Shown here: positions 9,212 to 61,185 of the stretch, in pieces
How positions within the stretch are numbered: the first letter of the stretch is position 1
How the letters are laid out: each line of letters begins with the position of its first letter
From: a virus
Length of the DNA: 64,000 bases
Direction: 5' to 3' (one strand)
IMG/VR virus record: IMGVR_UViG_3300037483_000793
Coordinates: 64,001 to 128,000 of that record
The notes under the pieces: generated by a model
The model's database searches: none
What the model was told of the DNA's origin: nothing
What the model saw: only the letters and a program-made list of their open reading frames with translations
Position numbers and translations under genes: made by a program

Positions 9212-9919
9212 GTGAACAAGATTTGGCGTTGTCCCAAGTGCGAGAGCGGCATCCGCGCGCCCGAGCGGTTGCGGCACATCGACGTGCGCCGCTACTGTTT
9301 CGAGTGCAGCACGAAGACCGGCCTGCTCGTCGAGCGCACGATCCCGAGCCGAGATGCCGAACGTGCACGCGCCAAACTCCTGCGCCGCGAGCACGAGGCC
9401 AAGGCGCGCGAGCGCGACGCAGCAAAGCGGACGGCGCACGTGCAGTCCGAGCGCGGGCAGCTCGAAGCGTTTGCGCGGGCCGCGCTCAAGCTCGACGCGT
9501 ACATCGGGCTCGGCTGGCAGATTCTCGACTTCAAGATCCGGCTCGCACGTACGACGCCGCTCAAGACCGAACCGCGCACGCGGATCATCGATGGGCAGGA
9601 AGTCCACGACACGATCACGTACGGCGGTTATCGACAGGAACAGTCGAGCGGTCACGCGTACGGTAACAACCGGTTCGTGATCACGGCGGGTTCGGATCCC
9701 GCAGACGCACGCGCAACGATCCTGCACGAGATCGCGCACTGCGCTGCGGGCTACAACGGCGGCGCCCACAACGACAAGTGGCGCTCGATCTTTACGAGCG
9801 CGACCGTCGAGCTGACTGGCGAGACGCCGCAAGCCACAGGCTCGTCGTATCACGATCTACACACTGCAATTGCTGGGTGCGTCCAGCGCTGGCTCGAACG
9901 AGGAGAAACGTTGCCATGA
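9212..9919 (+). CDS. N-terminal Zn ribbon plus SprT-like HExxH domain protein
   Basis: CPKC...CFEC; TILHEIAHCAAG...AHNDKWRSIF. Confidence 0.7.
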   Translation: MNKIWRCPKCESGIRAPERLRHIDVRRYCFECSTKTGLLVERTIPSRDAERARAKLLRREHEAKARERDAAKRTAHVQSERGQLEAFARAALKLDAYIGLGWQILDFKIRLARTTPLKTEPRTRIIDGQEVHDTITYGGYRQEQSSGHAYGNNRFVITAGSDPADARATILHEIAHCAAGYNGGAHNDKWRSIFTSATVELTGETPQATGSSYHDLHTAIAGCVQRWLERGETLP

Positions 9920-10742
9920 CCGAGATCGCCGACAATCAGAAGTACCGCGTGAACCTGATCTGCCAATGCCAAGACGATGCCGCGTTCGGATACGGCGCGA
10001 CACCGGACGTTGCACGACGGAACGCCGAAGGATTCTTCCGCGAGCATCACGGCGCGAAGGGTCAGTATCGGCAAATCGTTGTCGAGCACGCAGTCGCGCA
10101 CACGGACGGTTCGCACTACGAAGTGTTCGCTGCGGGTATGCGCTACGAGTTCACGCGCGGACTCGGTGCTGCGTTGTACCCGCTGGAACGCTTCGGCAAC
10201 GATCTCTTCAAGCGTGATCACGCGTCGCGCCCGTACGTCTTCGAAACGCACAGCTACCAGTGCGCGAAATCGTTGCGCGAAACGCTGCAGCACATTGCAG
10301 ACGACAAGCGCAAGAACCAGAAGATGCGCGACGCGGCAAAACGCGCACACGACGAGATCACGAAGATTTCGCGAGCTGTGTGGTGAGCACCGGCATGTGC
10401 CCTGCGCTGTTGCACGGCCTCGACTTCGACGGTCAGGCGTGTGACTTCTGCGCCGAGATGGTCAAGCAGGCAGGTCGACTGCAGTACCAGATGACGCAGT
10501 ACAAACCGTTCACCGAGCGGGCATACTGCGTCGCGTGCCCCGAGTGCAACGCACATCCACTGGAAGGTTGTTGTGCCTACGGTGGACGCTCGTGCAAGCT
10601 GCACAGCAAGCGTGAGGCGCGCGCGAACGGGCTCCGGGCGACCCCGCGGCGCGGTTTCTTTCAGCGACCGAAGACCCCGATCCAGTTCAACGAGGCCGAA
10701 CGTCAGGCCTTCCAGCTACTTGGCCTTCCGATCCCCAAATAG
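9916..10742 (+). other. Two hypothetical CDSs (9916-10386; 10383-10742 Cys-rich)
   Basis: Coupled overlaps. Confidence 0.55.
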
Positions 10743-10781
10743 CAACTCACTCTTGCTTTGTTTGAATAGGCTCGGTACAAC
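10743..10781 (+). promoter_or_regulatory. Class 1 promoter cassette copy
   Basis: CAACTCACTCTTGCTTTGTTTGAATAG, TTGCTT-N17-TACAAC. Confidence 0.7.
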
Positions 10782-10796
10782 CGACGTCAGGTCACC

Positions 10797-11741
10797 ATGA
10801 TGAACAACGCGAACAAGCCCGCCACGCCTCAGATCGAAGCGCTGCCCGGCATGACGCCGCTGGGTTTCACGCCGCCGCGCAAGGATGCGCGCCCCGACGA
10901 CATCGCGCTCGATGCTTCGAAGGCCAGCGACCGTGGCGATCACCGCGACGCCGAGCGGCTGTATCTGCTCGCTGCGGCGCGCGCCTCGACCTACACGAAG
11001 GCACCGACGATGCGCAAGAACATGCAGCACTGGGACAAGTGTGCGTCGCGCGAGCGGCGCTTGGCCGAGCTGACCAAGAAGTAGGCGTGTCGTGGCAAAG
11101 AGACCCGCTACCCATCTCCGCATCACGACTTCGTGGGGCAACCACAAGCGAATCTCGCTCTGGTGCGCAGAACGCACTGCAGTAACTGCCTCACGCAACT
11201 TCGACACGACGGAAGATCCCACGAAGGTCAACTGCCGCAAGTGCATCAAGGCGGGCGGCCGCGGCCCAGGATGGAAGTCGTCGTGAACATCAACCGCCTA
11301 CGCCCGACGGGCGTTGAGGATCTCGCCCTCTGGCTGTCGGGTGTCGTCAACGACGCGATCCGCGACGTACGCGAGGCCGGGCTCGACGAAACGTCCATCT
11401 ATCTCCTGCTGAAGAAGTACGCCGAGACCAACCACCCGTACGGGTATCGCAACAAGGATTTTCCAGTGGCACATACACAGCCCGCAACGCTGTTCGAGAT
11501 CCGGGCGCTCGACAACAAGTCCAAGGGCACGCTCTTGATCGCCGACTTCAACGAGACGCGCGGCAAGCCTGCCGAGTACATGGCGACGCTTGCGACCCCG
11601 CCGCTCGTGGCGACGGGTTTCGCGCCCCCGAACGAGTACCGCACGCAGAGCGCAGCCGTCCGGGCGGTCGCTGATCAGGTCAAGAGCATTCTCGACCAGC
11701 TGGGCGAAATTGCCCGCACCCTCGAAGCGAACGGCAAGTAG
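10797..11741 (+). other. Three hypothetical CDSs (10797-11084, 11092-11286, 11283-11741)
   Basis: Operon downstream of promoter cassette. Confidence 0.55.
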
Positions 11742-42290: not shown

Positions 42291-43055
42291 CTAGCGGTGC
42301 TTGATCGCGAACTGCAGTGCTTCGCGGCCGAGCCTGAACGCGAGCGCCTTGCCGCTCGGGCCAAGTCGATACGGGCTCTGCGCAGCCCGCTTGGCGATGC
42401 GTAGCGCGAACCATGAAGCGGCGACGACGCCCACGACACCGAGCGCGCCGAGACCGATCTTGGCGCCCGTTGACATGCCGGTCGAGGCCATCGACGGCTG
42501 GACGCCGAGTGTCGCGAGCGCGGCAGCGATCTGTGGCGCGGCATCGCGTGCACCGTCAGCTGTGAAGTGGATCCCGTCGCCGCTCCGCTGCGCCATCTCG
42601 GTCAGCGGCCGGATGTCGAGCGTGCGGTCGATGCCGTACACGCCTCGGATCGTGTCCAGCATGAGCGGTGCAGCGGTCTCGAACTTGATGGCGTCGTACG
42701 ACGGCGGTCCGAGCGCGACAACTTCGGCGTGCGCGAGCTTGTACGCGTCACGGATTGCTTTCATGGCCGTCGCGGTCCGTGCAAGTTCGGGCGTCGTCAT
42801 GCCGCGATTGATGTCGTTGGTGCCAAGAAAGACGATGACTTTGGTCGGCTTGAACTGCGAGATGTCCGACGCGATTTGCGACAACCCGTTCTCGCCCTGA
42901 ATGAAGCTGATCGCCGAGCGGCCAACGCGCGCATTGATGTGGACGTCCTGTGCGCCAGCACCGTGCAGGAGCTGACCGAGAACGCCGCCCGGCGAGAACG
43001 CGCTCGCCGACAAGCTGTCACCGAGAATCAGAATACGCTCGCCGCGGATGTTCAT
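42291..43055 (-). CDS. SGNH/GDSL hydrolase with C-terminal membrane anchor
   Basis: ILILGDSLS, VGRS, FLGTND, DGIHF; C-terminal GLGALGVVGVVAASWFALR then basic tail. Confidence 0.85.
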   Translation of the reverse strand: MNIRGERILILGDSLSASAFSPGGVLGQLLHGAGAQDVHINARVGRSAISFIQGENGLSQIASDISQFKPTKVIVFLGTNDINRGMTTPELARTATAMKAIRDAYKLAHAEVVALGPPSYDAIKFETAAPLMLDTIRGVYGIDRTLDIRPLTEMAQRSGDGIHFTADGARDAAPQIAAALATLGVQPSMASTGMSTGAKIGLGALGVVGVVAASWFALRIAKRAAQSPYRLGPSGKALAFRLGREALQFAIKHR

Positions 43056-43993
43056 CGGCGCTTCCGCGTGTAGCCGACGAGTGGGCCGCGCGTCGCCAAG
43101 TTCTTGGCAACGTGGAGCGCGAGCCAACCCGCACCGACCAAGCCGCCAATCGCGGCAATCACCGCGAAGAACCTTTTGACGCTACTGTCAGCGTCGGCGG
43201 ATTCGGATGCCGTCGTCGAGCAGATCGGCATGTTCGGCGACCAGTTCGGAGCTGCTTCATTCGACACGGCCGCGATACCGCGCGCGAGCAGCGTCATGCC
43301 TTGTGGCGACGTCGGCTGCACGCCGTACTGGCGCATGAGAAACGTGCGGCGGTGATCGACACCCGGCAGCGGACCGACCCAGTAGTTGCCGCGCGTCGCA
43401 GTACTCTGCAGTGTCGCGGCCGGGTTGGGGTACGCGTTGCGGTTGAACAGATTAGATTGATCGTCTGCGAGCCGCGCGAAATTGTGGCTGCGGCCTGACG
43501 CGATGAGGTCTCCGAGTAGGAGCGTTAGCACGCTCGGATCGAGACGCGTCGAGGCCCAACGACGATACGGCGCCGTCGTGACACCGGTCGGTCCATGGAT
43601 CGGACCATAGAAGCCGTAGTTCGGATGGCCTACGCCCTGGTTGTAGAGCAGGACGTTGAGCACCGACTTGCCGCGGAGCTTGGCGCGGTTGACGGCCGCT
43701 TCACCGACAGCGACGCGTTCTTCGATCGTGCCGTTGCCGATCTCGGACTGCATGTAGCGGGCAAGCGTGTAGGCTTCGAGTGAGAGCTTGCCACTGAACA
43801 GTCCCGGCGCGAGCTGCTTGAGCCGCGTCTCGGCGTTCGCGCGCATGCTCTCTGGCGAGCACGCGATGTTGCCCTGGTCGTTGAGCGCACAGCCCGAGAA
43901 CACGGTGACCTGCGCGCCCCGCGCGAGCGGCGCAAGCATGGCGTGCCATGGCGGATAGCACGTCGTCGGCGTGTCCAACATCGGAGTCGCCAC
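43052..43993 (-). CDS. SleB-like (Hydrolase_2) cell-wall hydrolase with C-terminal membrane anchor
   Basis: LARYMQSEIG...ERVAVGEAAVNRA; TM FFAVIAAIGGLVGAGWLAL; tail LVGYTRKRR. Confidence 0.7.
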   Translation of the reverse strand: MATPMLDTPTTCYPPWHAMLAPLARGAQVTVFSGCALNDQGNIACSPESMRANAETRLKQLAPGLFSGKLSLEAYTLARYMQSEIGNGTIEERVAVGEAAVNRAKLRGKSVLNVLLYNQGVGHPNYGFYGPIHGPTGVTTAPYRRWASTRLDPSVLTLLLGDLIASGRSHNFARLADDQSNLFNRNAYPNPAATLQSTATRGNYWVGPLPGVDHRRTFLMRQYGVQPTSPQGMTLLARGIAAVSNEAAPNWSPNMPICSTTASESADADSSVKRFFAVIAAIGGLVGAGWLALHVAKNLATRGPLVGYTRKRR

Positions 43994-48756: not shown

Positions 48757-49187
48757 CACGTAAGCCAGAGCGCGGCAGCGCCAAAGACAAACTCGAAACG
48801 GTCAAGCAGTGCAAGTCATGTCCTTGGCGTGTCGACTGCGTGCCTGAGAAAGACATCCCGAACGGCTACTGCGCGAACATGCACGCTGAGCTGCACGGCA
48901 CGATCAAAAGTGGTCTGGAGTCGTTGCCGCGACCGGGCGGCGTCATCCGTGCGATGGCGTGCCACTACAGCAAACCCGGCGAGGAGTTCGTCTGCGCTGG
49001 TTGGTTGGAGAATCAGCTCGGGCCTGGCAACAACATCGCGGCGCGTCTCAAGGTTATGACAGGCGCGTGGCCGGTGCCCGAGATCGACGGCGAGCAACAC
49101 GAGCGCTTCGAGGACACGCTGCCCAAAACTAGCACTCGGGCGCCCAAGCGAACGCGACGGCCCCGACAGCCGCGCCGGTCGCGGTGA
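48753..49187 (+). CDS. DUF6283-like Cys/His protein
   Basis: QCKSCPWR...MACH...VCAGWL. Confidence 0.6.
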   Translation: MTRKPERGSAKDKLETVKQCKSCPWRVDCVPEKDIPNGYCANMHAELHGTIKSGLESLPRPGGVIRAMACHYSKPGEEFVCAGWLENQLGPGNNIAARLKVMTGAWPVPEIDGEQHERFEDTLPKTSTRAPKRTRRPRQPRRSR

Positions 49188-49380
49188 TGCCGACGGCGGT
49201 CGCCAGACCGTCCGAAATCGGTTCGCCGGGCGCCGATCGTGCGAGCCGCCGCAGGGACACGGTCGTGCCCACCACCAGGCCCAAAACGCCACCTACGAGA
49301 CCACCCATGAGCGCCCCAGCTGTGCCGCGGGCGACGCGCGAGCTGCGACTACAGTGCGCGCTGAGCTGACGACGGCGCAT
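49129..49380 (-). CDS. Gly-zipper helical-hairpin membrane protein ending PEC
   Basis: Paralogous to the C-half of 49381-49860. Confidence 0.65.
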   Translation of the reverse strand: MRRRQLSAHCSRSSRVARGTAGALMGGLVGGVLGLVVGTTVSLRRLARSAPGEPISDGLATAVGITATGAAVGAVAFAWAPEC

Positions 49381-49860
49381 CTAGCACTCCGGCTTGGCGG
49401 CGCCGATAGCGAGGCCGCTGACAGCGCCCAGGACCGCGATACCGGACCCGATGAGCATCCAGTGCTTGTAGCGGGCGATGCTAGCGATGGGTTCCGTGAT
49501 GTCGGCCTGCGTGGTCGCGACGGCGACAGCTAGGCCGCCGCCAATCATGCTGCCGATCACGCCGCCGATCAGGGCGCCGAGCCCGCCACGAACGACGCGG
49601 GACGTGTTCGAGCAGGAAGAACTGCCCAGATTCTTGCGATTCCGCACACCATCGAAGTGAATCTTCGCGAGCTTCTTGTAGTAGTTTTTGTCTTCGCACA
49701 GGTGATCGAGCGCGATCTGTTGCGCGATCTTGTGATCGGTGGTGTGTTCCAGCTCGACCGCGGTACCTCGATGTAGCTGCGCAGCGTCGAAGTCCTTTGT
49801 GTGGCATCCGTGACGGCGGGCGTAACCGTTAGGTAGACGGACAGATCGTGCGGGCGTCAT
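49381..49860 (-). CDS. DUF5661-like domain fused to Gly-zipper membrane hairpin ending PEC
   Basis: GTAVELEHT.D...A.QIALDHL.E...YY.KL; two TM segments. Confidence 0.7.
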   Translation of the reverse strand: MTPARSVRLPNGYARRHGCHTKDFDAAQLHRGTAVELEHTTDHKIAQQIALDHLCEDKNYYKKLAKIHFDGVRNRKNLGSSSCSNTSRVVRGGLGALIGGVIGSMIGGGLAVAVATTQADITEPIASIARYKHWMLIGSGIAVLGAVSGLAIGAAKPEC

Positions 49861-49895
49861 GCGCTCGACGATACCATGATCGCGTGCGCGATCGA

Positions 49896-50114
49896 CTAGA
49901 GGGCGTCGGCGGTCGGCAGGCCGAGACCGCGCCGCATAACGTCACGCGCCGCCGACGAGATGTTGGGCTTGCGCTCGTCGTCCCGGCGGATGCCTTCGAG
50001 CTTGCGCGCGTAGGCTTCGAGGCGGTCGTGCAGTGTATCGTCGACGACAACGTGCAGATGACGAACGTGATCGCTGGCGCGACTGGTGGACCGCTTGGGA
50101 CGTTTTGGCTTCAC
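49896..50114 (-). CDS. Ribbon-helix-helix DNA-binding protein
   Basis: HLHVVVDDTLHDRLEAYA...NISSAARDVMRRGL; TATGAT seven nt before GTG. Confidence 0.6.
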   Translation of the reverse strand: MKPKRPKRSTSRASDHVRHLHVVVDDTLHDRLEAYARKLEGIRRDDERKPNISSAARDVMRRGLGLPTADAL

Positions 50115-50147
50115 GCGTGACATCATACTCGCGCTTTGCGCGCGAGG

Positions 50148-50879
50148 CTAGTGTCGCTTGAGCAGGACCGCTGTGACCAGGCCGAGCACGACTGCGCTGC
50201 CAGTCGCAGCAGCGATCACGATCTTCGTCTTGCGTGACATCGGGGGCTTCGAGACGGCAATCGGCCTTGGCGCAACCGGCGTCACGTCGCCCGACTTGAG
50301 CGCGGTGATCATGTTCTCGATCGCCGCTTTGACGTCGTCGAGTGTCCCGAGCGTCGCGATCGCGATCGTCGGGTCCATCATGCGCGCGTTGTTGATGCGC
50401 GCGGTTACGTCGCTGTTGGGGACCTGTGCCGCGACCGTGCCACCTGCTGCGGCAGTTGCCTGCTGCAGCAGCGCCATCGTCCCGCCGTGGACGACCCACA
50501 ACCGGTTGTTGAAGTCGCTGTACGCGCCGGTCGAAGTGCCGACGTCGAACACGACATCAAAGCTGTGGAACGTGGTCACCATCCCAAGGAAGCGCTCGAA
50601 CACCGCGATCGCATCCTCGGCAGACATGCCTGCAGCACCGAATCCGGGCTGCATGTACATGTTCGGATCGTACATGTAGTGGTACCGCGACGTCTCCGCG
50701 TCGGGGTAGTGCTTGCCGATCACGCCCGAGTAGATGCGGCTCTGATCATAGCGCGCCGCGTGCACGGGAAACTCGGCGGCGTAGAAGTCGGGGAAGCCGT
50801 AGCGGTACGGACCCTTTCCCCACTTCGTGACCAGCTCGTTGGCGCTCTCGCCGAAGGCGCCGTAGTGCGCGATCAGCAC
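50148..50879 (-). CDS. Tail-anchored membrane protein with AFG leader (putative virion)
   Basis: MLIAHYGAFG; C-terminal TM IVIAAATGSAVVLGLVTAVLL-KRH. Confidence 0.65.
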   Translation of the reverse strand: MLIAHYGAFGESANELVTKWGKGPYRYGFPDFYAAEFPVHAARYDQSRIYSGVIGKHYPDAETSRYHYMYDPNMYMQPGFGAAGMSAEDAIAVFERFLGMVTTFHSFDVVFDVGTSTGAYSDFNNRLWVVHGGTMALLQQATAAAGGTVAAQVPNSDVTARINNARMMDPTIAIATLGTLDDVKAAIENMITALKSGDVTPVAPRPIAVSKPPMSRKTKIVIAAATGSAVVLGLVTAVLLKRH

Positions 50880-50882
50880 GGG

Positions 50883-51755
50883 TTACCGGCTCCGCGAACG
50901 GCGCCGACCGAGTGCGGGCGACGTGTAGAGGAAGCCGGGCTTGTGCTTGCCCGCCGCGACCGCACCGACGGTGGTGAGGCCGACCATCGCAGCGGCGCCC
51001 ATGACGATTGGCGCCCACTTGCTGCGCTGTTCGCCTGCCTTGGGCACGACGAACGGAATCGTCGAGACGTCGAGCTGCGTCTGGATCGGAACGTTGCCGC
51101 GCTCGTTGAATTGCGACAACAGCGCCGGGAAGTGATCAGCGACGTCGTTGAGGTAGTCGGCGATCTCCGTCGAATACTTGGCGTAGATGTCCGTGCGTGT
51201 CGGCGACACGAATGCGAGGGCGATGCCCGGGTTCGGGAACTTCTTGAGCATGCCCGCGAGTGTCAGCGCGAGTACCGTGAACTGCATCGTCGAAGCACCG
51301 ACCACACCGTCGTAGCCGCTCTGCGCGCCAACTGGGCTCATGAGGTTCGAGGGCACCGTGAAGATCTGCTCGGATGTCGATCCGTCGCCGGACGGCATCT
51401 GACCTTTCATCTGCCGCCCCGCGAGACCGTTGGTCGGGATGAGGTCGATCACGCGGTCGGCAGCGCGCTGCATGTTGCGAATCGGTGCCTTGCCGCTCTC
51501 GCCAGCCTTGTTGAGCACACACTGCGGACGGTTCGCGTTGTCCTTGGTGCAGTACACGAGCCCGTCATCGGACTTGTACGTGGTGCCCGCACCAGCTGCC
51601 TGGAACACGGAAAAGTCCGATACTGCTGCGCCAAAACCGTAGCCGGTGTTGACCCCGCCGCGCATGCGGGCACGGTCCTGCGCGACCTGGATAAGAACAA
51701 GCGCGGAGGGCGCTTGCGACTGCCCAAATCCGTTGCCGTAGGAGCTGACGATCAT
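50883..51755 (-). CDS. Tail-anchored protein with GFG leader and PG-binding-like DGVVG..T motif
   Basis: MIVSSYGNGFG; YDGVVGAST; TM; tail ALGRRRSRSR. Confidence 0.6.
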   Translation of the reverse strand: MIVSSYGNGFGQSQAPSALVLIQVAQDRARMRGGVNTGYGFGAAVSDFSVFQAAGAGTTYKSDDGLVYCTKDNANRPQCVLNKAGESGKAPIRNMQRAADRVIDLIPTNGLAGRQMKGQMPSGDGSTSEQIFTVPSNLMSPVGAQSGYDGVVGASTMQFTVLALTLAGMLKKFPNPGIALAFVSPTRTDIYAKYSTEIADYLNDVADHFPALLSQFNERGNVPIQTQLDVSTIPFVVPKAGEQRSKWAPIVMGAAAMVGLTTVGAVAAGKHKPGFLYTSPALGRRRSRSR

Positions 51756-51795
51756 GTGGTTAGCCTACCACAGAAGCGATCCCAGCAGCGATCGA

Positions 51796-52500
51796 CTACC
51801 GGCGCCGACGACGGCGCGCGAGGTTCGACTTCGACTTCGCTTTCTTGGGCGCGGGCTCACGCAGCACGGCATAACCGACGGCACCGACGACGACGACACC
51901 GGCAACGCCAGCGGTGACCCAGACCCACGTCGGGACCTTGCCCGATGTCGCGATCGGCATGAGCGACGCCGCGGCTGGGTTTGCGCCCGGCATCATGGTG
52001 GGCTGGATCGCTGCGGTCGTCGTTCCTCGTGGCGCCGTCACCATCAGCGACGGTGAAAGCGAAACCGACGTAGGCGGCGTGACGACGGCAATCGGCGTGC
52101 TGGACGGAACCGGCGTCGGCGTCGAGGTCGCAACAGGGAACTGCGATCGCGGCGCGGTCACACCGCCGAGAAACGCTTGCAGCCCGTCCTGAAGGATCTG
52201 TGCGTTCGATGCGATTGCCTCCTTCGTCGAGCCCGGTGACGCGAGCAGCGCTGCCGCCGCGGCCGCGCGTGCGGCCGTGACTGTCTGCGCCCCGATGAAG
52301 CCGTCGACGGTGAGCTGCCCCGTGTACGCAGACAGCCCGAGCTTGGCGTACTGGTTCAGCGTGCCCTGCAGCTGCTGAAGCAGCGCGTGGTTTGCTGCGC
52401 CGATCGCGTAGCAGATGCTGCTGTTGCAGTTGAAGTCGGTGCCTTGCGAGAGCACGCGAGCGGCGCCAAACGCGCCACTGATCGTTGTCGTGAACAGCAC
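51796..52500 (-). CDS. Peptidoglycan-binding-domain protein, Pro/Thr linker, C-terminal TM
   Basis: LTVDGFIGAQTVTA; FNCNSSICYA; tail NLARRRRRR. Confidence 0.75.
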   Translation of the reverse strand: MLFTTTISGAFGAARVLSQGTDFNCNSSICYAIGAANHALLQQLQGTLNQYAKLGLSAYTGQLTVDGFIGAQTVTAARAAAAAALLASPGSTKEAIASNAQILQDGLQAFLGGVTAPRSQFPVATSTPTPVPSSTPIAVVTPPTSVSLSPSLMVTAPRGTTTAAIQPTMMPGANPAAASLMPIATSGKVPTWVWVTAGVAGVVVVGAVGYAVLREPAPKKAKSKSNLARRRRRR

Positions 52501-52503
52501 GGG

Positions 52504-53082
52504 CTAACCCCGTGCCTTGCGACGGTAGACGACGTAGCCGACGCCGCCGACACCGAGCACGGCCACGACGCCGCCAAGGATCCACCACAGCGTCTTGGAC
52601 TTGACCTTCGGCAGCGCCGCGGCAGCAGGTGACATGCCCGGGATCTGCACAGGTCCGATCGTGGTCGTCTGGTGCACGACTGGCGGCGGCTGGTACGCGA
52701 CAGCAGTACCGGACGGCGACGGCCGCATGCCTCCAGCCTGTTGTACGACGGCGAGGTTCTGAAGCAGGTCGATCAGCATGCCCGCGTTTGCGGCGACGGC
52801 TTCTTTCGTCGATGGCGCCGTCGCGAGACCCAGCCTCTTGATCGCTTGCAGCGCCGTTACCGTAGCGGCGCCGATGAAGCCATCGACGGTGAGCGGCTTG
52901 AAGCCTGCAGCACCGGAGAAGACGTTCGTCTTCATCTGCAGCTGCTTGAACAACGCGTCGTTCGTCGGGCCGATCGCGTAGCAGATGGCGTTGTTGCAGT
53001 TGAAGTCCTTGCCCTGTGTCAGCCCGGCGGCGCTGAAGCCGTAGCCGAAGCCGTTACCGCCGCTGTGAGCCTGAATAAGCAT
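52504..53082 (-). CDS. Peptidoglycan-binding-domain protein (paralog of 51796-52500), C-terminal TM
   Basis: LTVDGFIGAATVTA; FNCNNAICYA; GGAG RBS before ATG 53082. Confidence 0.75.
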   Translation of the reverse strand: MLIQAHSGGNGFGYGFSAAGLTQGKDFNCNNAICYAIGPTNDALFKQLQMKTNVFSGAAGFKPLTVDGFIGAATVTALQAIKRLGLATAPSTKEAVAANAGMLIDLLQNLAVVQQAGGMRPSPSGTAVAYQPPPVVHQTTTIGPVQIPGMSPAAAALPKVKSKTLWWILGGVVAVLGVGGVGYVVYRRKARG

Positions 53083-53207
53083 GGATTCTCCTGTCCAAAC
53101 ATGTATCACGCGAGGTCCGGGACGGGCAACGATCGCGCACGCGATCGGCCTGCCAAACGCCTGTCAGGCCCTCCGAAACCTCGATCGCGTCGGCGATCCA
53201 GAGTAGG

Positions 53208-53540
53208 ATGAACGTCAACGTCGTGAACCCCGCCGCCAACGCCCGCACCATCGTCGTGCTGTTCACGATCCCCGGATGTGAAGCGTGCGCGGAGTACAAG
53301 CCGCGCTTTCAGCGCATCGCGCAGCAGTATCAAAACGTCGTGCCCATCTACATGCTCAACGCTAACGACACGCGACCGGACGTCGCGGACCTTGCAAGTC
53401 GTTTGCATGTTGCGAACGTACCTGCGACGTTCGTGTTGCGGCGACCGACCGGCGTGATCCGCGTCGAAGGTGCTATCCCTGATTCTCAAATCGCGTGGCT
53501 GCTTGGTGTCGCTGCGCGCGAAGTGTCGAACCCTTACTAG
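53208..53540 (+). CDS. Thioredoxin-fold protein without signal peptide
   Basis: FTIPGCEAC (CxxC) and VANVPATF cis-Pro loop. Confidence 0.85.
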   Translation: MNVNVVNPAANARTIVVLFTIPGCEACAEYKPRFQRIAQQYQNVVPIYMLNANDTRPDVADLASRLHVANVPATFVLRRPTGVIRVEGAIPDSQIAWLLGVAAREVSNPY

Positions 53541-53553
53541 GAGAGAAACGAGA

Positions 53554-53898
53554 ATGATGTACGCAAACCTTCGCGACGCCAGTGGCAACATGGTCGGCTC
53601 CGTCGCAGTCGATCCCACGCAGGCAGGTGGCCTGCAAGGCGCTCTCAGCGACGCGATGCAGAAGCTGCAGCACGCGCAAGGCCAAGGCGTGCCGCACCAG
53701 GCACGTCCACTGCCGCCCGGTTACCTACCGCCGGGTGCGGGCCAGTCACAGCCGTACTCGCAGTCGCGGCCGTTTGTCTGCCAGATGCGTTACCAGACGC
53801 GCGCGCCGAACGGCCAGGTCGTGTGGGCGACGCAGTCGATCACGTGCCCGCCGGGGATGCCGCCGGGCATCTACATCCACTCGCCCGGCCACCGCTAG
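53554..53898 (+). CDS. Gln/Pro-rich hypothetical protein with 2 Cys
   Basis: GGAG RBS; follows thioredoxin. Confidence 0.6.
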   Translation: MMYANLRDASGNMVGSVAVDPTQAGGLQGALSDAMQKLQHAQGQGVPHQARPLPPGYLPPGAGQSQPYSQSRPFVCQMRYQTRAPNGQVVWATQSITCPPGMPPGIYIHSPGHR

Positions 53899-54434
53899 TT
53901 CTTGGCGGTGGCGGCGGTTCCGCTGCGCGTGTCGGGGAACTTCTTCGACGCGTAGTGGATCGTGGTGTAAAACGTCGCGCACGTGATGACGTCGATCGCG
54001 ACCATCGTTGCGATCGGCCACGACAGCGGCAACGTGGTGGTCAAGTACACCGGCACGTAGATCGCGCGTGTGATCATCACGCAGATGGCGAGGCTGATCG
54101 GGTTACCGCGCGCACGCCACGAGCGGAAGAACCGTAGCAGAACGGGGATCCAGGCCAGAGCGACGACGAGCGTCGCGATGGGTACAGCTTCCTGGTTCAC
54201 GTTGGTTCACGACTTGACGTGCAGGCCAGCGCCGTTGAGGGTGTGCTTGAGGTCGGTGCTGGCCCGACCGAAGCGTTGTACGTGACGCCGCTGGGCGACT
54301 TCAGCCGCCGCGTGGATCTGTTGATCCACTTCGGCTGCAGCGTGCCTGACGGTGCGCCGTGTGCGCCGCTGCCACAGTCCGAGACCGACGACGAGCACGA
54401 TGAAGATCAGAACCGATGTTACGAAGGACCACAT
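53895..54434 (-). other. Two small membrane proteins (53895-54200 multi-TM; 54207-54434 single N-terminal TM)
   Basis: Hydrophobic segments; adjacent to holin-like gene. Confidence 0.55.
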
Positions 54435-54435
54435 G

Positions 54436-54642
54436 TCATTTTCCTTCTTCAGGAGCTGTGCCAGCAGCGAGCGTCACAGCTTCGGGAACATCGAGTGTCT
54501 TCAAGATCACCGCGTTGACGATGGTGAGCTTTTGGATGAGGAGACGAATTTCTCGCAGCTCACGCGTGACGCTCATCATGAGCCACAGCGCAAAGCCGAC
54601 GGGAAATCCCCACCGCTCGATGATGGTTTGGAAGAGATCCAC
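54436..54642 (-). CDS. YvrJ/BhlA-like holin-type small membrane protein
   Basis: IIERWGFPVGFALWLM followed by amphipathic helix. Confidence 0.55.
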   Translation of the reverse strand: MDLFQTIIERWGFPVGFALWLMMSVTRELREIRLLIQKLTIVNAVILKTLDVPEAVTLAAGTAPEEGK

Positions 54643-54658
54643 GAGTAGTTAGTCGTGG

Positions 54659-54943
54659 TTACATCCGAGCGGCGACGCACTTGCGGAACGCCTTGGCACT
54701 CTTGCCCTTGCAGGCACGTGCAGCGGCGGCGAGCTTGCGCTTGTACGGCGCGAGGTGGCGCGTCGATGGCGCGCGACGCGGCGAGCAGCCCGGCCCGGTC
54801 TTGCCCTTGAACGAGATGACCTTGCCACGCTTGGTCTTGAAACGGACGATGCCGCTCCGGCAGCTGGCGCCGCGCGCGCGGCTCCGCTTCTTGCTGCGCT
54901 TCTTCCGTGCACCGAGGGCCTCGAACGTGTTGATACCGAACAT
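54659..54943 (-). CDS. Very basic putative DNA-condensing core protein
   Basis: MFG..EALG-ARKKRSKKRSRAR; Lys/Arg rich; 4 Cys; AGGAG RBS. Confidence 0.65.
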   Translation of the reverse strand: MFGINTFEALGARKKRSKKRSRARGASCRSGIVRFKTKRGKVISFKGKTGPGCSPRRAPSTRHLAPYKRKLAAAARACKGKSAKAFRKCVAARM

Positions 54944-54971
54944 GCTGCTCTCCTGAAGGTTGTGCGCTGCC

Positions 54972-55127
54972 TTAGCGCTTGACGAACGGGTTCGGACGCT
55001 GCACCGGACGCTGCACCGGACGCTGCACGGGCCGCGCGGGTTGCGCAGGCATCGTACGAACGCAGCAATCCTTGCCGGACTGCGGAGCTTGCCGAACAGG
55101 AGCTTTGGGGCTACGGCGACCGAACAT
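54972..55127 (-). CDS. Unannotated 51-aa basic protein MFGRRSPK...(PVQR)3...KR
   Basis: Below ORF-track cutoff; TGG-TAGGAT seven nt before ATG; contains the 12-bp repeat in frame. Confidence 0.6.
   Translation of the reverse strand: MFGRRSPKAPVRQAPQSGKDCCVRTMPAQPARPVQRPVQRPVQRPNPFVKR
54993..55028. repeat. 12-bp tandem repeat CGGACGCTGCAC x3 (encodes PVQR on minus strand)
   Basis: Read directly. Confidence 0.9.
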
Positions 55128-55249
55128 GGCGTTCATCCTACCAGAACATTCGGTCGATCGCGCAAGCGATCGGGTACGCCAACGTGGGCGATCCCTTCAG
55201 GGACTGTTTGACCCGTACTGGCGCTACCCGTACATTCGAGCCCAGCGCC

Positions 55250-56257
55250 ATGACTCAGATCAATCCCCGTTCGTTCGCGGACGCCAAACAGCTCGGCGAT
55301 TCCACCTATGAACTGATCCTGACGAACTGGGGCAACTTCGGCAGTGCGCGCGATCCGAACAACGCCTCCGAGCAGTATCCGCCGATCAAGAGCACTCCGG
55401 CGCCGACACCGCCGGGACCGCTCGCGTTGCCGAACGGCGCAATTCCGATCGTCGGCGAGTGGCTACTGCCGCCGCTTCCCAGCGTCTTCGCGATCGCGAT
55501 TGCACCGCGCAGCGATCTCGATCGTTGCATCTTGAACTTTCCAGCGCTGCCGCAATTTCCAGCGGTCGACACACCAGAGCCGTACGGGCCACGCGGGCTC
55601 ACCGGCAAGAGCATTACGATCGCTGAAGGTTTCGTAAACTACGGCGGCATCCTGGAGACCGAACAGTTTCTGAGCGTGAATGCGCCGTTGATCGGTCAAA
55701 TCAACGGGCCGATCCTCGTTCGTGCTCACACGTTCGCGTGGTTCAAGGACGGTTACACACCGCTCGATCCAGCTGGGACGCAGCGCTTCGGTACTGCCCT
55801 CAACGAACCGTTCAGTACGTCAGGTGTGATCAGCAATTTTCAGGTGCCCGAGCTGCGCCTCTTGCTGTACTTGACCAGCAAGAGCGGGCTGCCGCCACAG
55901 AAGCGTGCGCCACTCCATCGCACCTTCAACATAACGCCAATCTACCCGGCAGCGGGTATCGTCGGCCCGTGGGTCGTACCGATCATGGGACGGCGTCATG
56001 TCGTGATCTCGGCGCGTAGCACCAGCGCCGGACCCGTCACGGTGAACGCAGGCGGTGTCATGAATAGCGAGTTCACCAACTTCGGAAGCACGGCAGACTT
56101 CTCGATGGATGAAGTGCCGCTCGGAACGGTCACGATCGCTGCAAACGGGGGCGGGGTCATCACCATCGACAACCCGGGTTGTCCGTTCCTGACGGTGCAG
56201 GCATCCGGCGGCGGCCTCTTCGATTTCATGACCGTCAACGTCGACGCATTCGACTAA
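55250..56257 (+). CDS. Beta-rich putative virion structural protein (alternative start 55184)
   Basis: Alternating beta-strand pattern, Pro-rich, 2 Cys; palindrome upstream. Confidence 0.5.
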   Translation: MTQINPRSFADAKQLGDSTYELILTNWGNFGSARDPNNASEQYPPIKSTPAPTPPGPLALPNGAIPIVGEWLLPPLPSVFAIAIAPRSDLDRCILNFPALPQFPAVDTPEPYGPRGLTGKSITIAEGFVNYGGILETEQFLSVNAPLIGQINGPILVRAHTFAWFKDGYTPLDPAGTQRFGTALNEPFSTSGVISNFQVPELRLLLYLTSKSGLPPQKRAPLHRTFNITPIYPAAGIVGPWVVPIMGRRHVVISARSTSAGPVTVNAGGVMNSEFTNFGSTADFSMDEVPLGTVTIAANGGGVITIDNPGCPFLTVQASGGGLFDFMTVNVDAFD

Positions 56258-56691
56258 AAGCAAAGCCCGTACGCGTTCCGGCCGGGTGGCGCCGGGCTCA
56301 CCTCGCAGTGGTGGTTAACGCTCGTCGCGCAGTCTGCATCGGTCACGCAGTACGGTTGACACTGTCCGTAAAAGCACATCGTGCCTGCCACGCAGTCGGT
56401 GTTGTTGAGACAAAACGAGTACACCTGACCTGTCCCGGCCGGTTCACAGGACGTGCTGGTGCTGCTGTTCGTGTAGCAGGCCTGCGTCGCGCCGCAGTCC
56501 TGCGCGATTGGGTCACAGCACGTGTCACACGGCGCGTATGAGATCGGCGGGCCGTCGATGCTACCGTCACCGAGTGCGTTGCCGTCGCCGTCGCTGTTAC
56601 CGGCGTCAATGACGTCGTCGTCGTCGCCTGTTCCTGTACTACCGCAACCACACCACGCGACGACTGCCGCGACCCAAATCATGTTTCGCAT
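56254..56691 (-). CDS. Cys-rich secreted/lipoprotein of myxobacterial type
   Basis: Hydrophobic N-terminus ending AWCGC, Asp/Gly linker, CDPIAQDC...C..DC repeats. Confidence 0.7.
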   Translation of the reverse strand: MRNMIWVAAVVAWCGCGSTGTGDDDDVIDAGNSDGDGNALGDGSIDGPPISYAPCDTCCDPIAQDCGATQACYTNSSTSTSCEPAGTGQVYSFCLNNTDCVAGTMCFYGQCQPYCVTDADCATSVNHHCEVSPAPPGRNAYGLCF

Positions 56692-56774
56692 GTTTCTCTC
56701 GACTTGTTGTACTGCAGAGAGACGCGCGAACCGGCTGAATGTTCACGCAGCAATTTCGCTGCGACTTCAACTTG

Positions 56775-57125
56775 TTACAGGTCCGACGACGACAGGATGT
56801 ACCAGGCGACGCCGTCCGAAACTACGTGCATGACGTCGTACTGGTCGGGTAGTGACTGCGTCGGCGCGCCGTCGATCGTGTCGACGCCTGTCGGGTTGAT
56901 CGTCACGGCGAAGGCAGCACTGATGTTCTTGATCCAGTACGCCTTGCCCTTGTTGTCGGCCGCGAGTGGCAGTGTCACCGTGGCGAGCGCATTGACGAGA
57001 ATGACACTGGCGGGTGCATCGACACCGGCAGCGAACGCAGCGGTCACCGTGATGACGCCGTAGTGCAAGTACGGTGCGTTCATCAGCGGATAGCGGTCGT
57101 CCCAGGTCTCCTGATTTTTGCTCAT
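56775..57125 (-). CDS. Spike/fibre-type beta domain protein
   Basis: VTLPLA..KGKAYWIKN...TIDG...QY..VSDG..WYI pattern common in virion fibres. Confidence 0.7.
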   Translation of the reverse strand: MSKNQETWDDRYPLMNAPYLHYGVITVTAAFAAGVDAPASVILVNALATVTLPLAADNKGKAYWIKNISAAFAVTINPTGVDTIDGAPTQSLPDQYDVMHVVSDGVAWYILSSSDL

Positions 57126-57136
57126 GGCGGTCTCCT

Positions 57137-57439
57137 TTACGGAACGGGCAGTGCCTCGGAAGCCGAGACGGAAAGTAGACCGCTGACCGCCGCGCCGACG
57201 GCGTAGAGGCCCTGCTTCGGTGCGAGCACGAACGCGTGCTGTTCGCCGGGAAACACACGGTACGACGCGGTTGTCGGCGCAGGGAACAGATCGGTCGTCG
57301 TCAAGCTGACGAAGATCAGCACAGGGCCGACGTTGTTGACGAGAACACGCAACGGCTTGGTGCTGGCCGCTTTCGCGATCGTCGTCGGCTGCGTGCCGAC
57401 GGCTTGGACGGTGTACGTCTCGAAGTTTGTGTTCTGCAT
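57137..57439 (-). CDS. Small beta-sandwich virion protein
   Basis: VLVNNVGPVLIFV...RVFPGEQHAFVL...LYAV. Confidence 0.55.
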   Translation of the reverse strand: MQNTNFETYTVQAVGTQPTTIAKAASTKPLRVLVNNVGPVLIFVSLTTTDLFPAPTTASYRVFPGEQHAFVLAPKQGLYAVGAAVSGLLSVSASEALPVP

Positions 57440-57456
57440 CGCGAACAGCTACCGCG

Positions 57457-57993
57457 TTAGCGGACCTCGCTCGGGGGGCCGATGATGTCGAGGTAACCCT
57501 GGAAGTTGACCTCGATGCGCACGAACTGCACGTCGACGCGCTCGGGCTCGATGTTGGCGTCAAGGATCACGACCGCCGGGTAATCCTGCGTGTCGATCTG
57601 CACCTGGAAGCCCTCGCTGCGGACGATCGTGTAGGGCTCTTCGAGATCCCACGCGCCTGTGTTCTTCTGCAGCAGCTGGCTGACGAGCGTTGCGCTCTTG
57701 GTCAGGTTCTCGTTCTTCGCGAAATCGAGGATGCGCATACGCACCCGCTTCTCCAGCGTGGTCGGTTGCGGTTCGAGCACCGTTGGCGTTGAAAAGCCGT
57801 CGGGCGTGCCCTTGGCCGTCAGGCCGATCCGGACGCGGTGGATCTCGAACGGCTTGTCGACGTTGTGGAGAAACGACGCTTCGGGGAACACGACGCCCGA
57901 CAGGTTCGGACCGACGTCCAGCTCTGCGGCGACGTTGTACGGAATGCGAAACGTGATGTCCTTGCCCGCAAAAGCTACTGGCAGACGGCCCAT
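57457..57993 (-). CDS. Putative single-jelly-roll capsid-like protein
   Basis: 178 aa, all-beta pattern (FEIHRVRI, VRMRILD, LEEPYTIV..EGFQVQIDT, IEVNFQGY); GAGGAG RBS; heads a structural operon. Confidence 0.45.
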   Translation of the reverse strand: MGRLPVAFAGKDITFRIPYNVAAELDVGPNLSGVVFPEASFLHNVDKPFEIHRVRIGLTAKGTPDGFSTPTVLEPQPTTLEKRVRMRILDFAKNENLTKSATLVSQLLQKNTGAWDLEEPYTIVRSEGFQVQIDTQDYPAVVILDANIEPERVDVQFVRIEVNFQGYLDIIGPPSEVR

Positions 57994-59894: not shown

Positions 59895-60188
59895 ATGCCC
59901 GTTCAAGCCCTCATCCGTAAGCTGACCCGTGCGCAGATCGACAAGGTCGTCGCTGACTCCAAAGCGAAGCTCACCGTCCAGGATCAGAGCGGCGCAACGC
60001 TCGTCATCGTGACCGCTACGATGGACGGCGAGGGTAAGGATCCCGTCGCCAACCTCGCGCTGCAGAAGATCTGCGACATGGATGCTGCCGTTGTGCAGAA
60101 GGAGCGCGAGGAAGAGGCGGCCAAGATTGCGGCCGAGAAGCGGGCCAAGCTCGCTGCAGAAGCGGCGAAGGCCGCCAACAACGGCTAG
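59895..60188 (+). CDS. Hypothetical protein with Ala/Glu/Lys-rich helical tail
   Basis: GAGGT RBS. Confidence 0.55.
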   Translation: MPVQALIRKLTRAQIDKVVADSKAKLTVQDQSGATLVIVTATMDGEGKDPVANLALQKICDMDAAVVQKEREEEAAKIAAEKRAKLAAEAAKAANNG

Positions 60189-61102
60189 GCAACACGCCGA
60201 CGCTTCGGCGGTCTGCGCGACTTGGTCTTTTTCGTTTGTACCTTCGCACGCGCTTTCGCTGCTGCCTCGACAAGACTCGGCGGGTTCTCAGGCAACGGTT
60301 CCGGTGGCGGCGCTGGGGGTGCCGTGTTGAACTTCGCGAGCGCGATGATCTGTTGCACCATGACGATCAGTGGCTTGGGTGGATTTTCGGCGTCAAACCA
60401 GCCGACGCTTTCCCACATCGCGTCGATCGGTTGTGGTTCGCCGCCGACGTACTCGCAGGACATCACCAGCGTCAGGAAGTGCTGACCCGCTTTCTCGACA
60501 AACGTCGAGACGTATGGCGCGAACTTCGAGACCGCTATCCGACCGACGTCGAGACCGGTTGTGACCTTCACGGCACGCTGTACCGCGCTCTCGACGGACT
60601 CGCCGACTTCGAGTGCACCTTCGGGCAGCACATAGACGCCGCTCTTCTTGAGCTTGCCCATGAGGACGTTGCCCTCGTGGATCATGAGCGCTGTGACAGC
60701 GACGCGAACGACGGGCCTGTCGGTGGCGTCGATCTCGCCGATTTTGAAATCGGTCGATACCGGACACGCAGGATCGACTGGCCAGCGCCCCAATGCCCAC
60801 TTCTTGGCGTCGTTGCGATCGAAGAACGTCGCTAGCGGTTCCTGTGAATCGGGCGGCGCGAAGACCGCGGACACACGGCGACCGCCGATTGCCAGCTCGG
60901 GCGGTTTCGAGCCGATTGTCAAGTAGACTGGCTTGCCGTCTTTGCCCTGGTCAAGTACGAGCAGTGCCTCGTCACCCAGCTCGGCGCGCCGCGTCGAATA
61001 CGCCTCGGCCAACATCCGAACTGCCAGTGGCGGCAGCTTTTCAGCAGCGATTCGTTCAGGTGAATCGGCAGCGTGCGGACTGATGCGGATGATCGTCTTC
61101 AC
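60185..61102 (-). CDS. Protein with C-terminal degenerate Nudix domain
   Basis: VAVTALMIHEGNVLM...LPEGALEVGESVESAVQRAVKVTTGL. Confidence 0.7.
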   Translation of the reverse strand: MKTIIRISPHAADSPERIAAEKLPPLAVRMLAEAYSTRRAELGDEALLVLDQGKDGKPVYLTIGSKPPELAIGGRRVSAVFAPPDSQEPLATFFDRNDAKKWALGRWPVDPACPVSTDFKIGEIDATDRPVVRVAVTALMIHEGNVLMGKLKKSGVYVLPEGALEVGESVESAVQRAVKVTTGLDVGRIAVSKFAPYVSTFVEKAGQHFLTLVMSCEYVGGEPQPIDAMWESVGWFDAENPPKPLIVMVQQIIALAKFNTAPPAPPPEPLPENPPSLVEAAAKARAKVQTKKTKSRRPPKRRRVA

Positions 61103-61185
61103 GGACGGACCGTAACACGACACGAAGATGGCCCTGATCGGGTAGACTAGAGGTCGATCGCTGCTGCGATCGAGGAGCACCCAGG

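What the first reader, a model, noticed from the sequence alone, without database searches (positions are those of the whole stretch)
53208..53540. Viral cytoplasmic thioredoxin amid virion proteins with even cysteine counts: a poxvirus-like disulfide pathway?
Seen: a CEAC thioredoxin with no signal peptide, flanked by two palindromes. Manual Cys counts: 43052=4, 49129=2, 49381=4, 50883=2, 51796=2, 52504=2, 53554=2, 53895=2, 54659=4, 54972=2, 55250=2, 61764=2, 62323=4, and the 3.4-5.6 kb island 2,4,2,2,2,2. Exceptions are 59895 and 61186 (1 each). Most are not CxxC metal motifs. Established: poxviruses encode a cytoplasmic disulfide relay for virion membrane proteins. Inference: an analogous system in a bacterial virus, or alternatively a reductase for uncoating.
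Basis: partly seen in the sequence, partly recalled or inferred. Interest (0 to 1): 0.75.

Follow-up and report, generated by a model that had tools for sequence, protein, structure and literature searches.

The report
Thioredoxin built into a phage's particle genes
A large uncultured bacterial virus and its relatives keep a small cytoplasmic thioredoxin-type enzyme among their particle-building genes, next to membrane-anchored proteins whose cysteines come in conserved pairs. This suggests, without proving, a virus-run disulfide chemistry like that of poxviruses.

Summary
The ORF at 53208-53540 is a real thioredoxin-fold protein. It has a C-E-A-C motif and a cis-proline, no signal peptide, and a confident model. 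It is the only redoxin I detected in this 196-kb virus record.

The cysteine counts are correct. The excess of even counts is significant in the 42-64 kb block (P=0.0002). It is absent from the rest of the genome and recurs in a distant complete relative. The paired cysteines are invariant across 7-14 homologues.

Two details need correction:
- Both palindromes lie upstream of the gene rather than flanking it.
- "Virion proteins" rests on context plus one jelly-roll model of moderate strength.

The gene is a lineage core gene. It sits within 3-7 kb of the jelly-roll shell genes in all six records that cover the region, and it lies on the same strand as the shell genes in the distant relatives. 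A complete 85.6-kb relative keeps it but has no detectable ribonucleotide reductase, which argues against the refuting scenario.

No Erv, DsbB, VKOR, baculovirus P33 or FAD-Rossmann oxidase was found, so the poxvirus-like relay lacks its defining oxidase.

Verdict: the link to particle assembly is well supported. The redox direction and the compartment are unproven. Other reports of this scan had already read this genome as a tailless, membrane-containing virus.

The parts
53208..53540 (+). Thioredoxin-fold oxidoreductase, 110 aa, G-C-E-A-C active site, cis-Pro72 (V-P-A-T), no signal peptide
53131..53198 (.). Two copies of the GATCGC-N4-GCGATC palindrome in the divergent gap upstream of the thioredoxin. 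The motif sits at the same place in at least 14 relatives.
53554..53898 (+). 114-aa protein always directly downstream on the same strand in the close relatives. Conserved N-terminal 40 aa, Pro/Gln linker, small C-terminal domain with a cysteine pair that is not invariant.
52504..53082 (-). C-terminally anchored membrane protein with an invariant C-x4-C loop and a D-G-F-I-G-x-x-T segment that resembles a peptidoglycan-binding domain. Divergent from the thioredoxin.
51796..52500 (-). Paralogue of 52504-53082 with the same invariant C-x4-C loop, a C-terminal anchor and a basic tail
50883..51755 (-). C-terminally anchored membrane protein with a conserved C69/C79 pair
49381..49860 (-). DUF5661 domain plus a two-helix membrane hairpin. 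An invariant Cys lies before helix 1 and another is the last residue (P-E-C), both on the basic side.
49129..49380 (-). 83-aa hairpin membrane protein of the same design: an invariant Cys before helix 1 and a terminal P-E-C
53895..54200 (-). 101-aa three-helix membrane protein with two invariant cysteines inside helices 2 and 3, in the half nearer the basic loops
54659..54943 (-). 94-aa very basic (Lys/Arg-rich) soluble protein with four invariant cysteines. It is kept near the thioredoxin even in distant relatives.
54972..55136 (-). 54-aa basic, proline-rich protein with an invariant vicinal N-C-C-V-R motif
56254..56691 (-). 145-aa protein with an N-terminal hydrophobic leader and 16 cysteines, most of them conserved. 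Probably exported.
57457..57993 (-). 178-aa cysteine-free beta-sandwich (jelly-roll type) protein. It is the most conserved gene of the module and a candidate shell subunit.
57137..57439 (-). 100-aa cysteine-free protein. It follows the jelly-roll gene in most relatives with the region and is the last gene before the thioredoxin in L035.
43052..43993 (-). 313-aa C-terminally anchored protein with four invariant cysteines. It is a lineage core gene found near the thioredoxin in distant relatives.

Best explanation
The gene encodes a soluble, cytoplasmic thiol-disulfide oxidoreductase that is a core part of this virus lineage's particle-assembly programme. I propose that it is made together with the shell and membrane proteins. 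I propose that it acts on their conserved cysteine pairs: the C-x4-C loops of the anchored proteins, the hairpin proteins with a cysteine at each end, the four-cysteine basic protein, and the four-cysteine anchored protein.

I lean towards it forming or shuffling disulfides, the role G4L plays in poxviruses, rather than merely keeping the cysteines reduced. The host cytoplasm already supplies reductants, and relatives of the enzyme carry PDI- and DsbA-type active sites but never the reductant motif C-G-P-C. The electron acceptor is unknown.

Shown: the fold and active site, the conserved position, the co-occurrence with shell genes independent of RNR, the conserved paired cysteines, and the parity bias.

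Inferred: that these proteins are its substrates, the direction of the reaction, and that the disulfides exist at all.
For: Fold and active site:
- C-x-x-C and the cis-Pro are invariant in 62 sequences, down to about 38% identity in that alignment.
- The model is confident and the fold hits are thioredoxins.

Position:
- At least 10 close relatives share the same gene order across 49381-57993.
- In four distant loci and in G004-G006 the gene lies within 3-7 kb of the two jelly-roll genes. In G006 it is on the same strand as the shell genes within a run of + strand genes.
- It is present in all six records that cover the region.

RNR:
- RNR is present in only 3 of 7 records and absent from the complete G006.

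Candidate substrates:
- The cysteine sets are invariant.
- The parity bias is confined to the module and replicates in G006.
- The shell proteins have no cysteine at all.

Wider family:
- Among the 97 small top hits of a full HMM search the motifs are CPAC 41, CGAC 24, CGHC 12 and CPHC 4, with no CGPC.

Shared upstream palindrome.

Precedent: the vaccinia E10-A2.5-G4 system acts on transmembrane virion proteins (PMC4213562).
Against: - No enzyme able to generate disulfides de novo was found in this genome or its relatives.
- A cytoplasmic thioredoxin is normally kept reduced by the host reductase.
- Topology is ambiguous. A crude positive-inside count favours an outward-facing N-domain for 43052 and 51796. 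In that case the host periplasmic Dsb system could make these disulfides.
- Small loops could also oxidise spontaneously after lysis.
- The palindrome occurs all over the genome, so it does not prove late co-expression.
- No experiment shows any disulfide.
Confidence: 0.55

Rival explanations
1. It is a general hydrogen donor. It supplies electrons to the viral ribonucleotide reductase (large subunit at genome 9284-11668, no small subunit found, so probably class II) or to other reductive enzymes, as T4 thioredoxin does. On this view its place among structural genes is incidental.
For: The genome has an RNR large subunit and no other detectable redoxin. Phage thioredoxins are usually tied to nucleotide metabolism (PHROG category; PMC6459318).
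Against: - It lies 107 kb from the RNR.
- The complete relative G006 has the thioredoxin but no detectable RNR.
- Its position beside the shell genes is conserved down to about 30% identity.
- A viral class II RNR has been shown to work with host thioredoxin (PMC6459318).
- No relative in the wider family carries C-G-P-C.
Confidence: 0.17
2. It is a reductant or holdase for assembly or uncoating. It keeps the cysteines of particle proteins reduced until assembly, with oxidation occurring outside the cell. Alternatively it is packaged and reduces particle disulfides at entry. In a variant of this idea it passes electrons to the three-helix, two-cysteine membrane protein 53895-54200, much as thioredoxin feeds CcdA or DsbD.
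For: - The context evidence is the same as for the main explanation.
- An acidic residue inside the C-x-x-C (E or D in the close relatives) would tend to disfavour a thiolate. This point is from general knowledge, not tested here.
- The invariant cysteines of 53895-54200 lie within membrane helices on the basic-loop side.
- No oxidase was found.
Against: - The host already provides cytoplasmic reductants, so selection for a dedicated one is less obvious.
- No clear counterpart of the three-helix protein was found in the distant relatives. BLAST gave no homologue, and a similar small protein in G006 shows no sequence similarity.
- Wider-family members carry PDI- or DsbA-type motifs.
Confidence: 0.18
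3. It has a redox-independent role as an assembly or replication cofactor, as host thioredoxin has in filamentous phage assembly or as the processivity factor of T7 DNA polymerase.
For: The genome encodes a family A DNA polymerase. Precedents exist for redox-independent uses of thioredoxin (from my own knowledge; T7 polymerase-thioredoxin complexes appear among the fold hits).
Against: Both active-site cysteines and the cis-Pro are invariant in all 62 aligned sequences, which points to selection on redox chemistry. The gene is linked to shell genes, not to the polymerase at genome 14-16.6 kb.
Confidence: 0.05

Closest known systems
Poxvirus cytoplasmic disulfide pathway (vaccinia E10R Erv-type oxidase, A2.5L, G4L thioredoxin-like protein), and its counterparts in other large nucleocytoplasmic DNA viruses
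   Same: A virus-encoded C-x-x-C thioredoxin-fold protein without a signal peptide, encoded with the morphogenesis genes. The candidate clients are membrane-anchored particle proteins with conserved cysteine pairs (PMC4213562).
   Different: No Erv/ALR oxidase and no conserved A2.5L-like relay were found. The enzyme resembles ordinary thioredoxin and PDI a-domains, and the poxvirus G4 structure is not among the top 50 fold hits. The presumed host is a bacterium.
Phage T4 thioredoxin (NrdC) and other phage redoxins serving ribonucleotide reductase
   Same: A small phage-encoded C-x-x-C redoxin in a genome that also carries an RNR.
   Different: It is not next to the RNR. It is retained in a complete relative without a detectable RNR and sits among the shell genes.
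PDI a-domain and DsbA-type oxidases or isomerases
   Same: The best PDB sequence match is PDIA4. The wider family includes CGHC and CPHC active sites. Val precedes the cis-Pro, as in DsbA (that comparison is from memory).
   Different: It is a single minimal domain with no helical insert, no export signal and no known reoxidising partner.
Intracellular disulfide use in hyperthermophilic archaea and their viruses, detected by an even-cysteine bias
   Same: The same parity signature is used as evidence (PMC3177088; PMC4187194).
   Different: Here the bias is confined to one module of the viral genome. The GC content and environment give no sign of thermophily.

Membership tests
Thioredoxin-fold superfamily (Pfam PF00085) | Profile match above the curated cut-off | tested here: met
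   31.7 bits against a cut-off of 23.5
Thioredoxin-fold superfamily (Pfam PF00085) | C-x-x-C at the start of helix 1, plus a cis-proline loop | tested here: met
   C24, C27 and P72 are invariant in 62 sequences. The C-x-x-C sits just before helix 25-38 in the model.
Thioredoxin-fold superfamily (Pfam PF00085) | Beta-alpha-beta-alpha-beta-beta-alpha fold | tested here: met
   Model pLDDT 85.7. Foldseek gives TM about 0.7 to many thioredoxins.
Canonical reductant thioredoxin (TrxA type) | W-C-G-P-C active site and a buried Asp six residues before the first Cys | tested here: not met
   The motif is G-C-x-A-C, and Leu18 stands at the position of E. coli Asp26 (the numbering comparison is from my own knowledge). 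None of the 97 small relatives has CGPC.
Poxvirus-type cytoplasmic disulfide pathway | Virus-encoded FAD sulfhydryl oxidase of the Erv/ALR family | tested here: not met
   No PF04777 match at E<=1 in this genome or in six relatives. DsbB, VKOR, baculovirus P33 and NAD_binding_8 were also negative. An oxidase that these profiles do not detect (a diverged member or an unrelated one) is not excluded.
Poxvirus-type cytoplasmic disulfide pathway | Thioredoxin-like C-x-x-C intermediate without a signal peptide | tested here: met
Poxvirus-type cytoplasmic disulfide pathway | Small cysteine-bearing adaptor between the oxidase and the thioredoxin-like protein | tested here: not met
   The only constant operon partner, 53554-53898, loses one or both cysteines in several relatives.
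Poxvirus-type cytoplasmic disulfide pathway | Clients are particle membrane proteins whose disulfide-bonded domains face the cytoplasm | tested here: inconclusive
   Conserved pairs in anchored proteins are shown. The side of the membrane is ambiguous by charge counts. Particle membership was not measured.
Poxvirus-type cytoplasmic disulfide pathway | Disulfides are actually present in particle proteins | not testable with these tools
   This needs non-reducing proteomics of particles.
RNR-dedicated phage redoxin | Co-occurrence and linkage with the RNR genes | tested here: not met
   It is 107 kb from the RNR. G006, which is complete, has the redoxin and no detectable RNR.

The most novel reading that the evidence does not exclude
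A bacterial virus with an internal membrane runs its own cytoplasmic disulfide-forming system for particle membrane and core proteins. This would be convergent with the nucleocytoplasmic large DNA viruses, but it would use an oxidant that is not of the Erv type. Candidates are one of the conserved small membrane proteins with buried or membrane-edge cysteines: 53895-54200, or the multi-helix protein with an invariant C-A-A-C at genome 150745-151113.
Probability: 0.2. Interest if true: 0.85.

Novelty: new variant of a known kind. Interest (0 to 1): 0.62.

Why it matters
Virus-encoded disulfide machinery for particle assembly is established for large eukaryotic DNA viruses. I found no report of it for a bacterial virus in three literature searches.

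In this lineage a thioredoxin-type enzyme is a core gene of the shell module, next to membrane-anchored proteins with invariant cysteine pairs. That gives a concrete, testable case. If the enzyme acts on these proteins, it would show that assembling a membrane-containing particle in a reducing cytoplasm calls for the same kind of solution in bacteria and eukaryotes. It would also point to an unknown oxidant.

Even the conservative reading changes the annotation. This gene should not be labelled as nucleotide metabolism by default.

Tried and rejected
- **Phage database searches.** Megablast of 6 kb and tblastn of the thioredoxin against 50,697 phage records found nothing.
- **Neighbour annotation.** PHROGs and Pfam on about 40 neighbours gave almost no annotation.
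- I could therefore not see the contexts of the metagenome proteins or of the 97 wider-family members. Their viral origin is unverified.
- **53554-53898 as an A2.5L-like relay.** Rejected, because its cysteines are not conserved.
- **43052-43993 as a SleB-type wall hydrolase.** This was my recollection of a motif. Neither Pfam on six family members nor a PDB sequence search supports it.
- **Peptidoglycan-binding reading of 51796 and 52504.** It rests on three sub-threshold PG_binding_3 hits on the same short motif. It is a lead only.
- **The C-A-A-C membrane protein (P0068).** Its CAAC motif is invariant in the two relatives where it was found. Its only resemblance is a weak DUF1360 lead, score 0.89. 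It is not a recognised oxidase.
- **A G006 counterpart of the three-helix protein.** Sequence comparison found none.
- **Tailed-phage and packaging markers.** Terminase_6N, HK97 capsid and FtsK profiles found nothing in the genome.
- **The jelly-roll model.** Foldseek on it gave no match at E<=0.001. Only the wide structural aligner gave capsid hits, at Z 6-7.4, mixed with nucleoplasmin and GOLD domains.

Full report
**Setting.** The window is bases 64001-128000 of a 195,792-bp IMG/VR virus record, estimated about 90% complete. GC content is about 62%. Because high GC produces many spurious ORFs, I called genes with a codon-usage model: 307 in the genome. That caller missed three small conserved genes, which I added after checking them against relatives.

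**The thing itself.**
- 53208-53540(+) encodes 110 residues with G-C24-E-A-C27.
- It passes the Pfam Thioredoxin cut-off (31.7 bits against 23.5). It matches the PHROG "thioredoxin domain" family weakly.
- In the PDB its best sequence match is a PDIA4 a-domain, ahead of ordinary thioredoxins.
- A full-database word search found 66 clusters of relatives, all from metagenomes or uncultured viruses.
- In 62 aligned sequences C24, A26, C27, P32, F34 and P72 are invariant. P72 is the cis-proline, in V-P-A/V-T.
- The first variable position of the motif is E, D, P, G, S, Q or A. The second is always Ala.
- The AF2 model is confident (pLDDT 85.7). It shows the minimal beta-alpha-beta-alpha-beta-beta-alpha thioredoxin fold.
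- Foldseek returns hundreds of thioredoxins and PDI a-domains at TM about 0.7. A mimivirus thioredoxin-like protein is the best viral match. The poxvirus G4 structure is not among the top 50.
- There is no signal peptide or membrane helix.
- Compared with E. coli thioredoxin (from my own knowledge), the Trp before the motif and the buried Asp26 are absent. Leu18 stands in the place of Asp26.
- A full HMM search of 1.84 billion representatives gave 272 hits at E<=1e-10. The 97 small ones share the family's signature. Their motifs are CPAC (41), CGAC (24), CGHC (12), CPHC (4) and a few others, never CGPC. I could not check their genomic contexts.

**Is it the only redox gene?** Yes, as far as profiles can see.
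- There is one PF00085 hit in the genome.
- The only glutaredoxin "hit" is this same gene.
- No Pyr_redox_2 (thioredoxin-reductase type) flavoprotein, no NAD_binding_8, and no Erv/ALR, DsbB, VKOR or baculovirus P33 were found.
- Erv is also absent from six related records.
- The genome has an RNR large subunit at 9284-11668 and no small subunit, so it is probably class II. It also has a family A polymerase.

**The neighbourhood.**
- PHROGs and Pfam say almost nothing about the neighbours. Their sequences are more informative.
- 50148, 50883, 51796 and 52504 share an N-terminal G-x-F-G leader, a single C-terminal membrane helix and a basic tail.
- 49381 and 49129 are two-helix hairpins.
- 53895 has three membrane helices.
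- 54659 is a 94-aa Lys/Arg-rich soluble protein.
- 56254 has a hydrophobic leader and 16 cysteines.
- 57457-57993 has no cysteine and is the most conserved gene. With a 49-sequence alignment it models confidently (pLDDT 89.4) as an all-beta sandwich.
- Foldseek found nothing below E 0.001 for that model. An exhaustive structural alignment put capsid jelly rolls of membrane-containing viruses at the top: EhV, PBCV-1, SPV1 with 142 residues aligned, HCIV-1, HHIV-2, FLiP, PRD1, P23-77 and STIV. They scored only Z 6-7.4 and were interleaved with nucleoplasmin and GOLD domains.
- Terminase_6N, HK97 capsid and FtsK profiles found nothing in the genome.
- Other agents of this scan had already proposed a tailless, internal-membrane, jelly-roll virus, perhaps of myxobacteria. 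My tests are compatible with that reading but do not prove it.

**Conserved position.**
- Twenty-six metagenome loci, two viral records and one MAG contig carry relatives of the thioredoxin.
- In at least 10 loci the order of genes from 49381 to 57993 is the same as in the window. The 114-aa gene 53554-53898 always follows directly on the same strand.
- In four distant loci, where the thioredoxin is 32-39% identical, the gene lies in a compact block. That block holds the homologue of the major shell candidate (genome 135255-136037), the jelly-roll gene, the thioredoxin, a homologue of 43052 in all four, and in most also the 57137 and four-cysteine basic-protein homologues.
- Searching the viral collection with the jelly-roll family gave six records. 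The thioredoxin family is found in five of them (G001, G002, G004, G005, G006), 3-7 kb from the jelly-roll gene in the distant ones. The sixth contig ends 3.7 kb from its jelly-roll gene.
- G006 is 85,650 bp with direct terminal repeats and is rated 100% complete. Its thioredoxin (C-P-A-C, V-P-A-T) lies on the same strand as the shell genes, within a run of + strand genes.
- RNR is present only in G000, G002 and G003. It is absent from G006.
- This co-occurrence pattern is my main argument against the RNR reading.

**Cysteines.**
- I redistributed the observed cysteines at random over the residues of each gene set to obtain a null.
  - The 42.3-64 kb block has 19 even, 7 odd and 11 zero, against a null even fraction of 0.43 (P=0.0002).
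  - The 49.4-58 kb core has 9 even, 1 odd and 6 zero.
  - The remaining 198 genes have 83 even and 85 odd.
- With the three added small genes, Fisher's test of module against rest gives P=0.009.
- The block was chosen after the signal had been seen, so I repeated the test in G006. There I delimited the module by homology only. The counts are 13 even to 7 odd inside and 14 to 38 outside (P=0.0035). Both genomes combined give P=0.0006.
- Proteins with no cysteine at all are also over-represented: 11 against 5.4 expected.
- The pairs are conserved, which matters more than the counts:
  - 51796 C25/C30 and 52504 C29/C34, 14 of 14 each.
  - 50883 C69/C79, 10 of 10 and 9 of 10.
  - 53895 C40/C74, 12 of 12.
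  - 54659, four cysteines, 13 of 13.
  - 49381 C83/C159, 8 of 8.
  - 49129, both cysteines, 7 of 7.
  - 54972, vicinal C-C, 11 of 11.
  - 43052, four cysteines, in every relative that covers them.
- The C-x4-C loop survives in the G006 homologue.
- Parity as a sign of disulfides follows published practice (PMC3177088; PMC4187194).

**Where are these cysteines?** This question decides between a viral cytoplasmic pathway and the host's periplasmic one, and I could not settle it.
- None of the anchored proteins has a signal peptide, which favours tail-anchored proteins with cytoplasmic N-domains.
- In the two hairpin proteins both cysteines lie on the side with the basic flank, which the positive-inside rule assigns to the cytoplasm.
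- The basic four-cysteine protein has neither a leader nor an anchor.
- For 43052 and 51796, however, the charge balance favours a cytoplasmic tail and an outward-facing N-domain.

**Palindromes.**
- GATCGC-N4-GCGATC occurs 14 times in the window against 0.05 expected.
- Two copies lie 10-77 bp upstream of the thioredoxin start, in the divergent gap. None lies downstream.
- The motif sits at a similar place upstream of the gene, mostly about 55-115 bp before its start, in at least 14 relatives.
- It is spread over the whole genome, so it marks promoters or operators in general rather than a late class.

**Reading.**
- The link between this enzyme and particle assembly is well supported.
- Its direction is not. 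I lean towards disulfide formation or shuffling for three reasons. The host already supplies reductants. The wider family uses PDI- and DsbA-type motifs and never the reductant motif. The parity and conservation data imply that these cysteines end up paired.
- The missing oxidase is a serious gap. The poxvirus pathway is therefore an analogy, not a membership.

Noticed in passing
window 53131-53146, 53183-53198 and 12 other sites: The GATCGC-N4-GCGATC palindrome occurs 14 times against 0.05 expected, often in divergent intergenic gaps. It is conserved upstream of the thioredoxin in at least 14 relatives and is present throughout the genome.
   Followed up: partly
window 50148-53082 (four genes, - strand): Four adjacent anchored proteins share an N-terminal leader ending in G-x-F-G, which could be a targeting or cleavage signal. 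51796 and 52504 are paralogues.
   Followed up: no
window 54659-54943 (-): A protamine-like Lys/Arg-rich 94-aa protein with four invariant, widely spaced cysteines. It is a candidate DNA-condensing core protein that could be cross-linked by disulfides.
   Followed up: partly
window 56254-56691 (-): A 145-aa protein with a hydrophobic leader (possibly a lipoprotein signal) and 16 mostly conserved cysteines. It gives a weak DUF7107 hit.
   Followed up: no
L010:4745-5113 (genome 150745-151113, +): A 122-aa multi-helix membrane protein with an invariant C-A-A-C at a helix start, 66-74% identical in two relatives. A DUF1360-like lead only. The adjacent 153-aa protein has C-A-N-C plus two further cysteines.
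   Followed up: partly
window 60185-61180 (-): A NUDIX-domain protein (Pfam 2.2e-8) embedded among the structural-type genes.
   Followed up: no
L009:7211-8152 (genome 134211-135152, -): A 313-aa protein with a BclA C-terminal / C1q-like domain (Pfam 2.4e-11), next to the major shell candidate. Probably a fibre or spike.
   Followed up: no
L042 (Polyangiales MAG contig, 10.3 kb) and protein P0133 (4.7-Mb Gemmatimonadota MAG contig): Relatives of the module occur on contigs binned with a myxobacterium and, for the jelly-roll protein, on a chromosome-sized Gemmatimonadota contig. These are host or provirus leads.
   Followed up: no
G006 (L058-L062), 85,650 bp with direct terminal repeats: A complete relative less than half the size of this genome. 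It shares the shell module and the thioredoxin but not the RNR, which makes it useful as a minimal reference for the lineage.
   Followed up: partly
L009:3533-5902 (genome 130533-132902, -): A 789-aa vWA-domain protein, about 34% identical to proteins of Ackermannviridae-type phages (Dickeya, Klebsiella, Salmonella). It was one of the few genes tried that found matches in the phage records searched.
   Followed up: no
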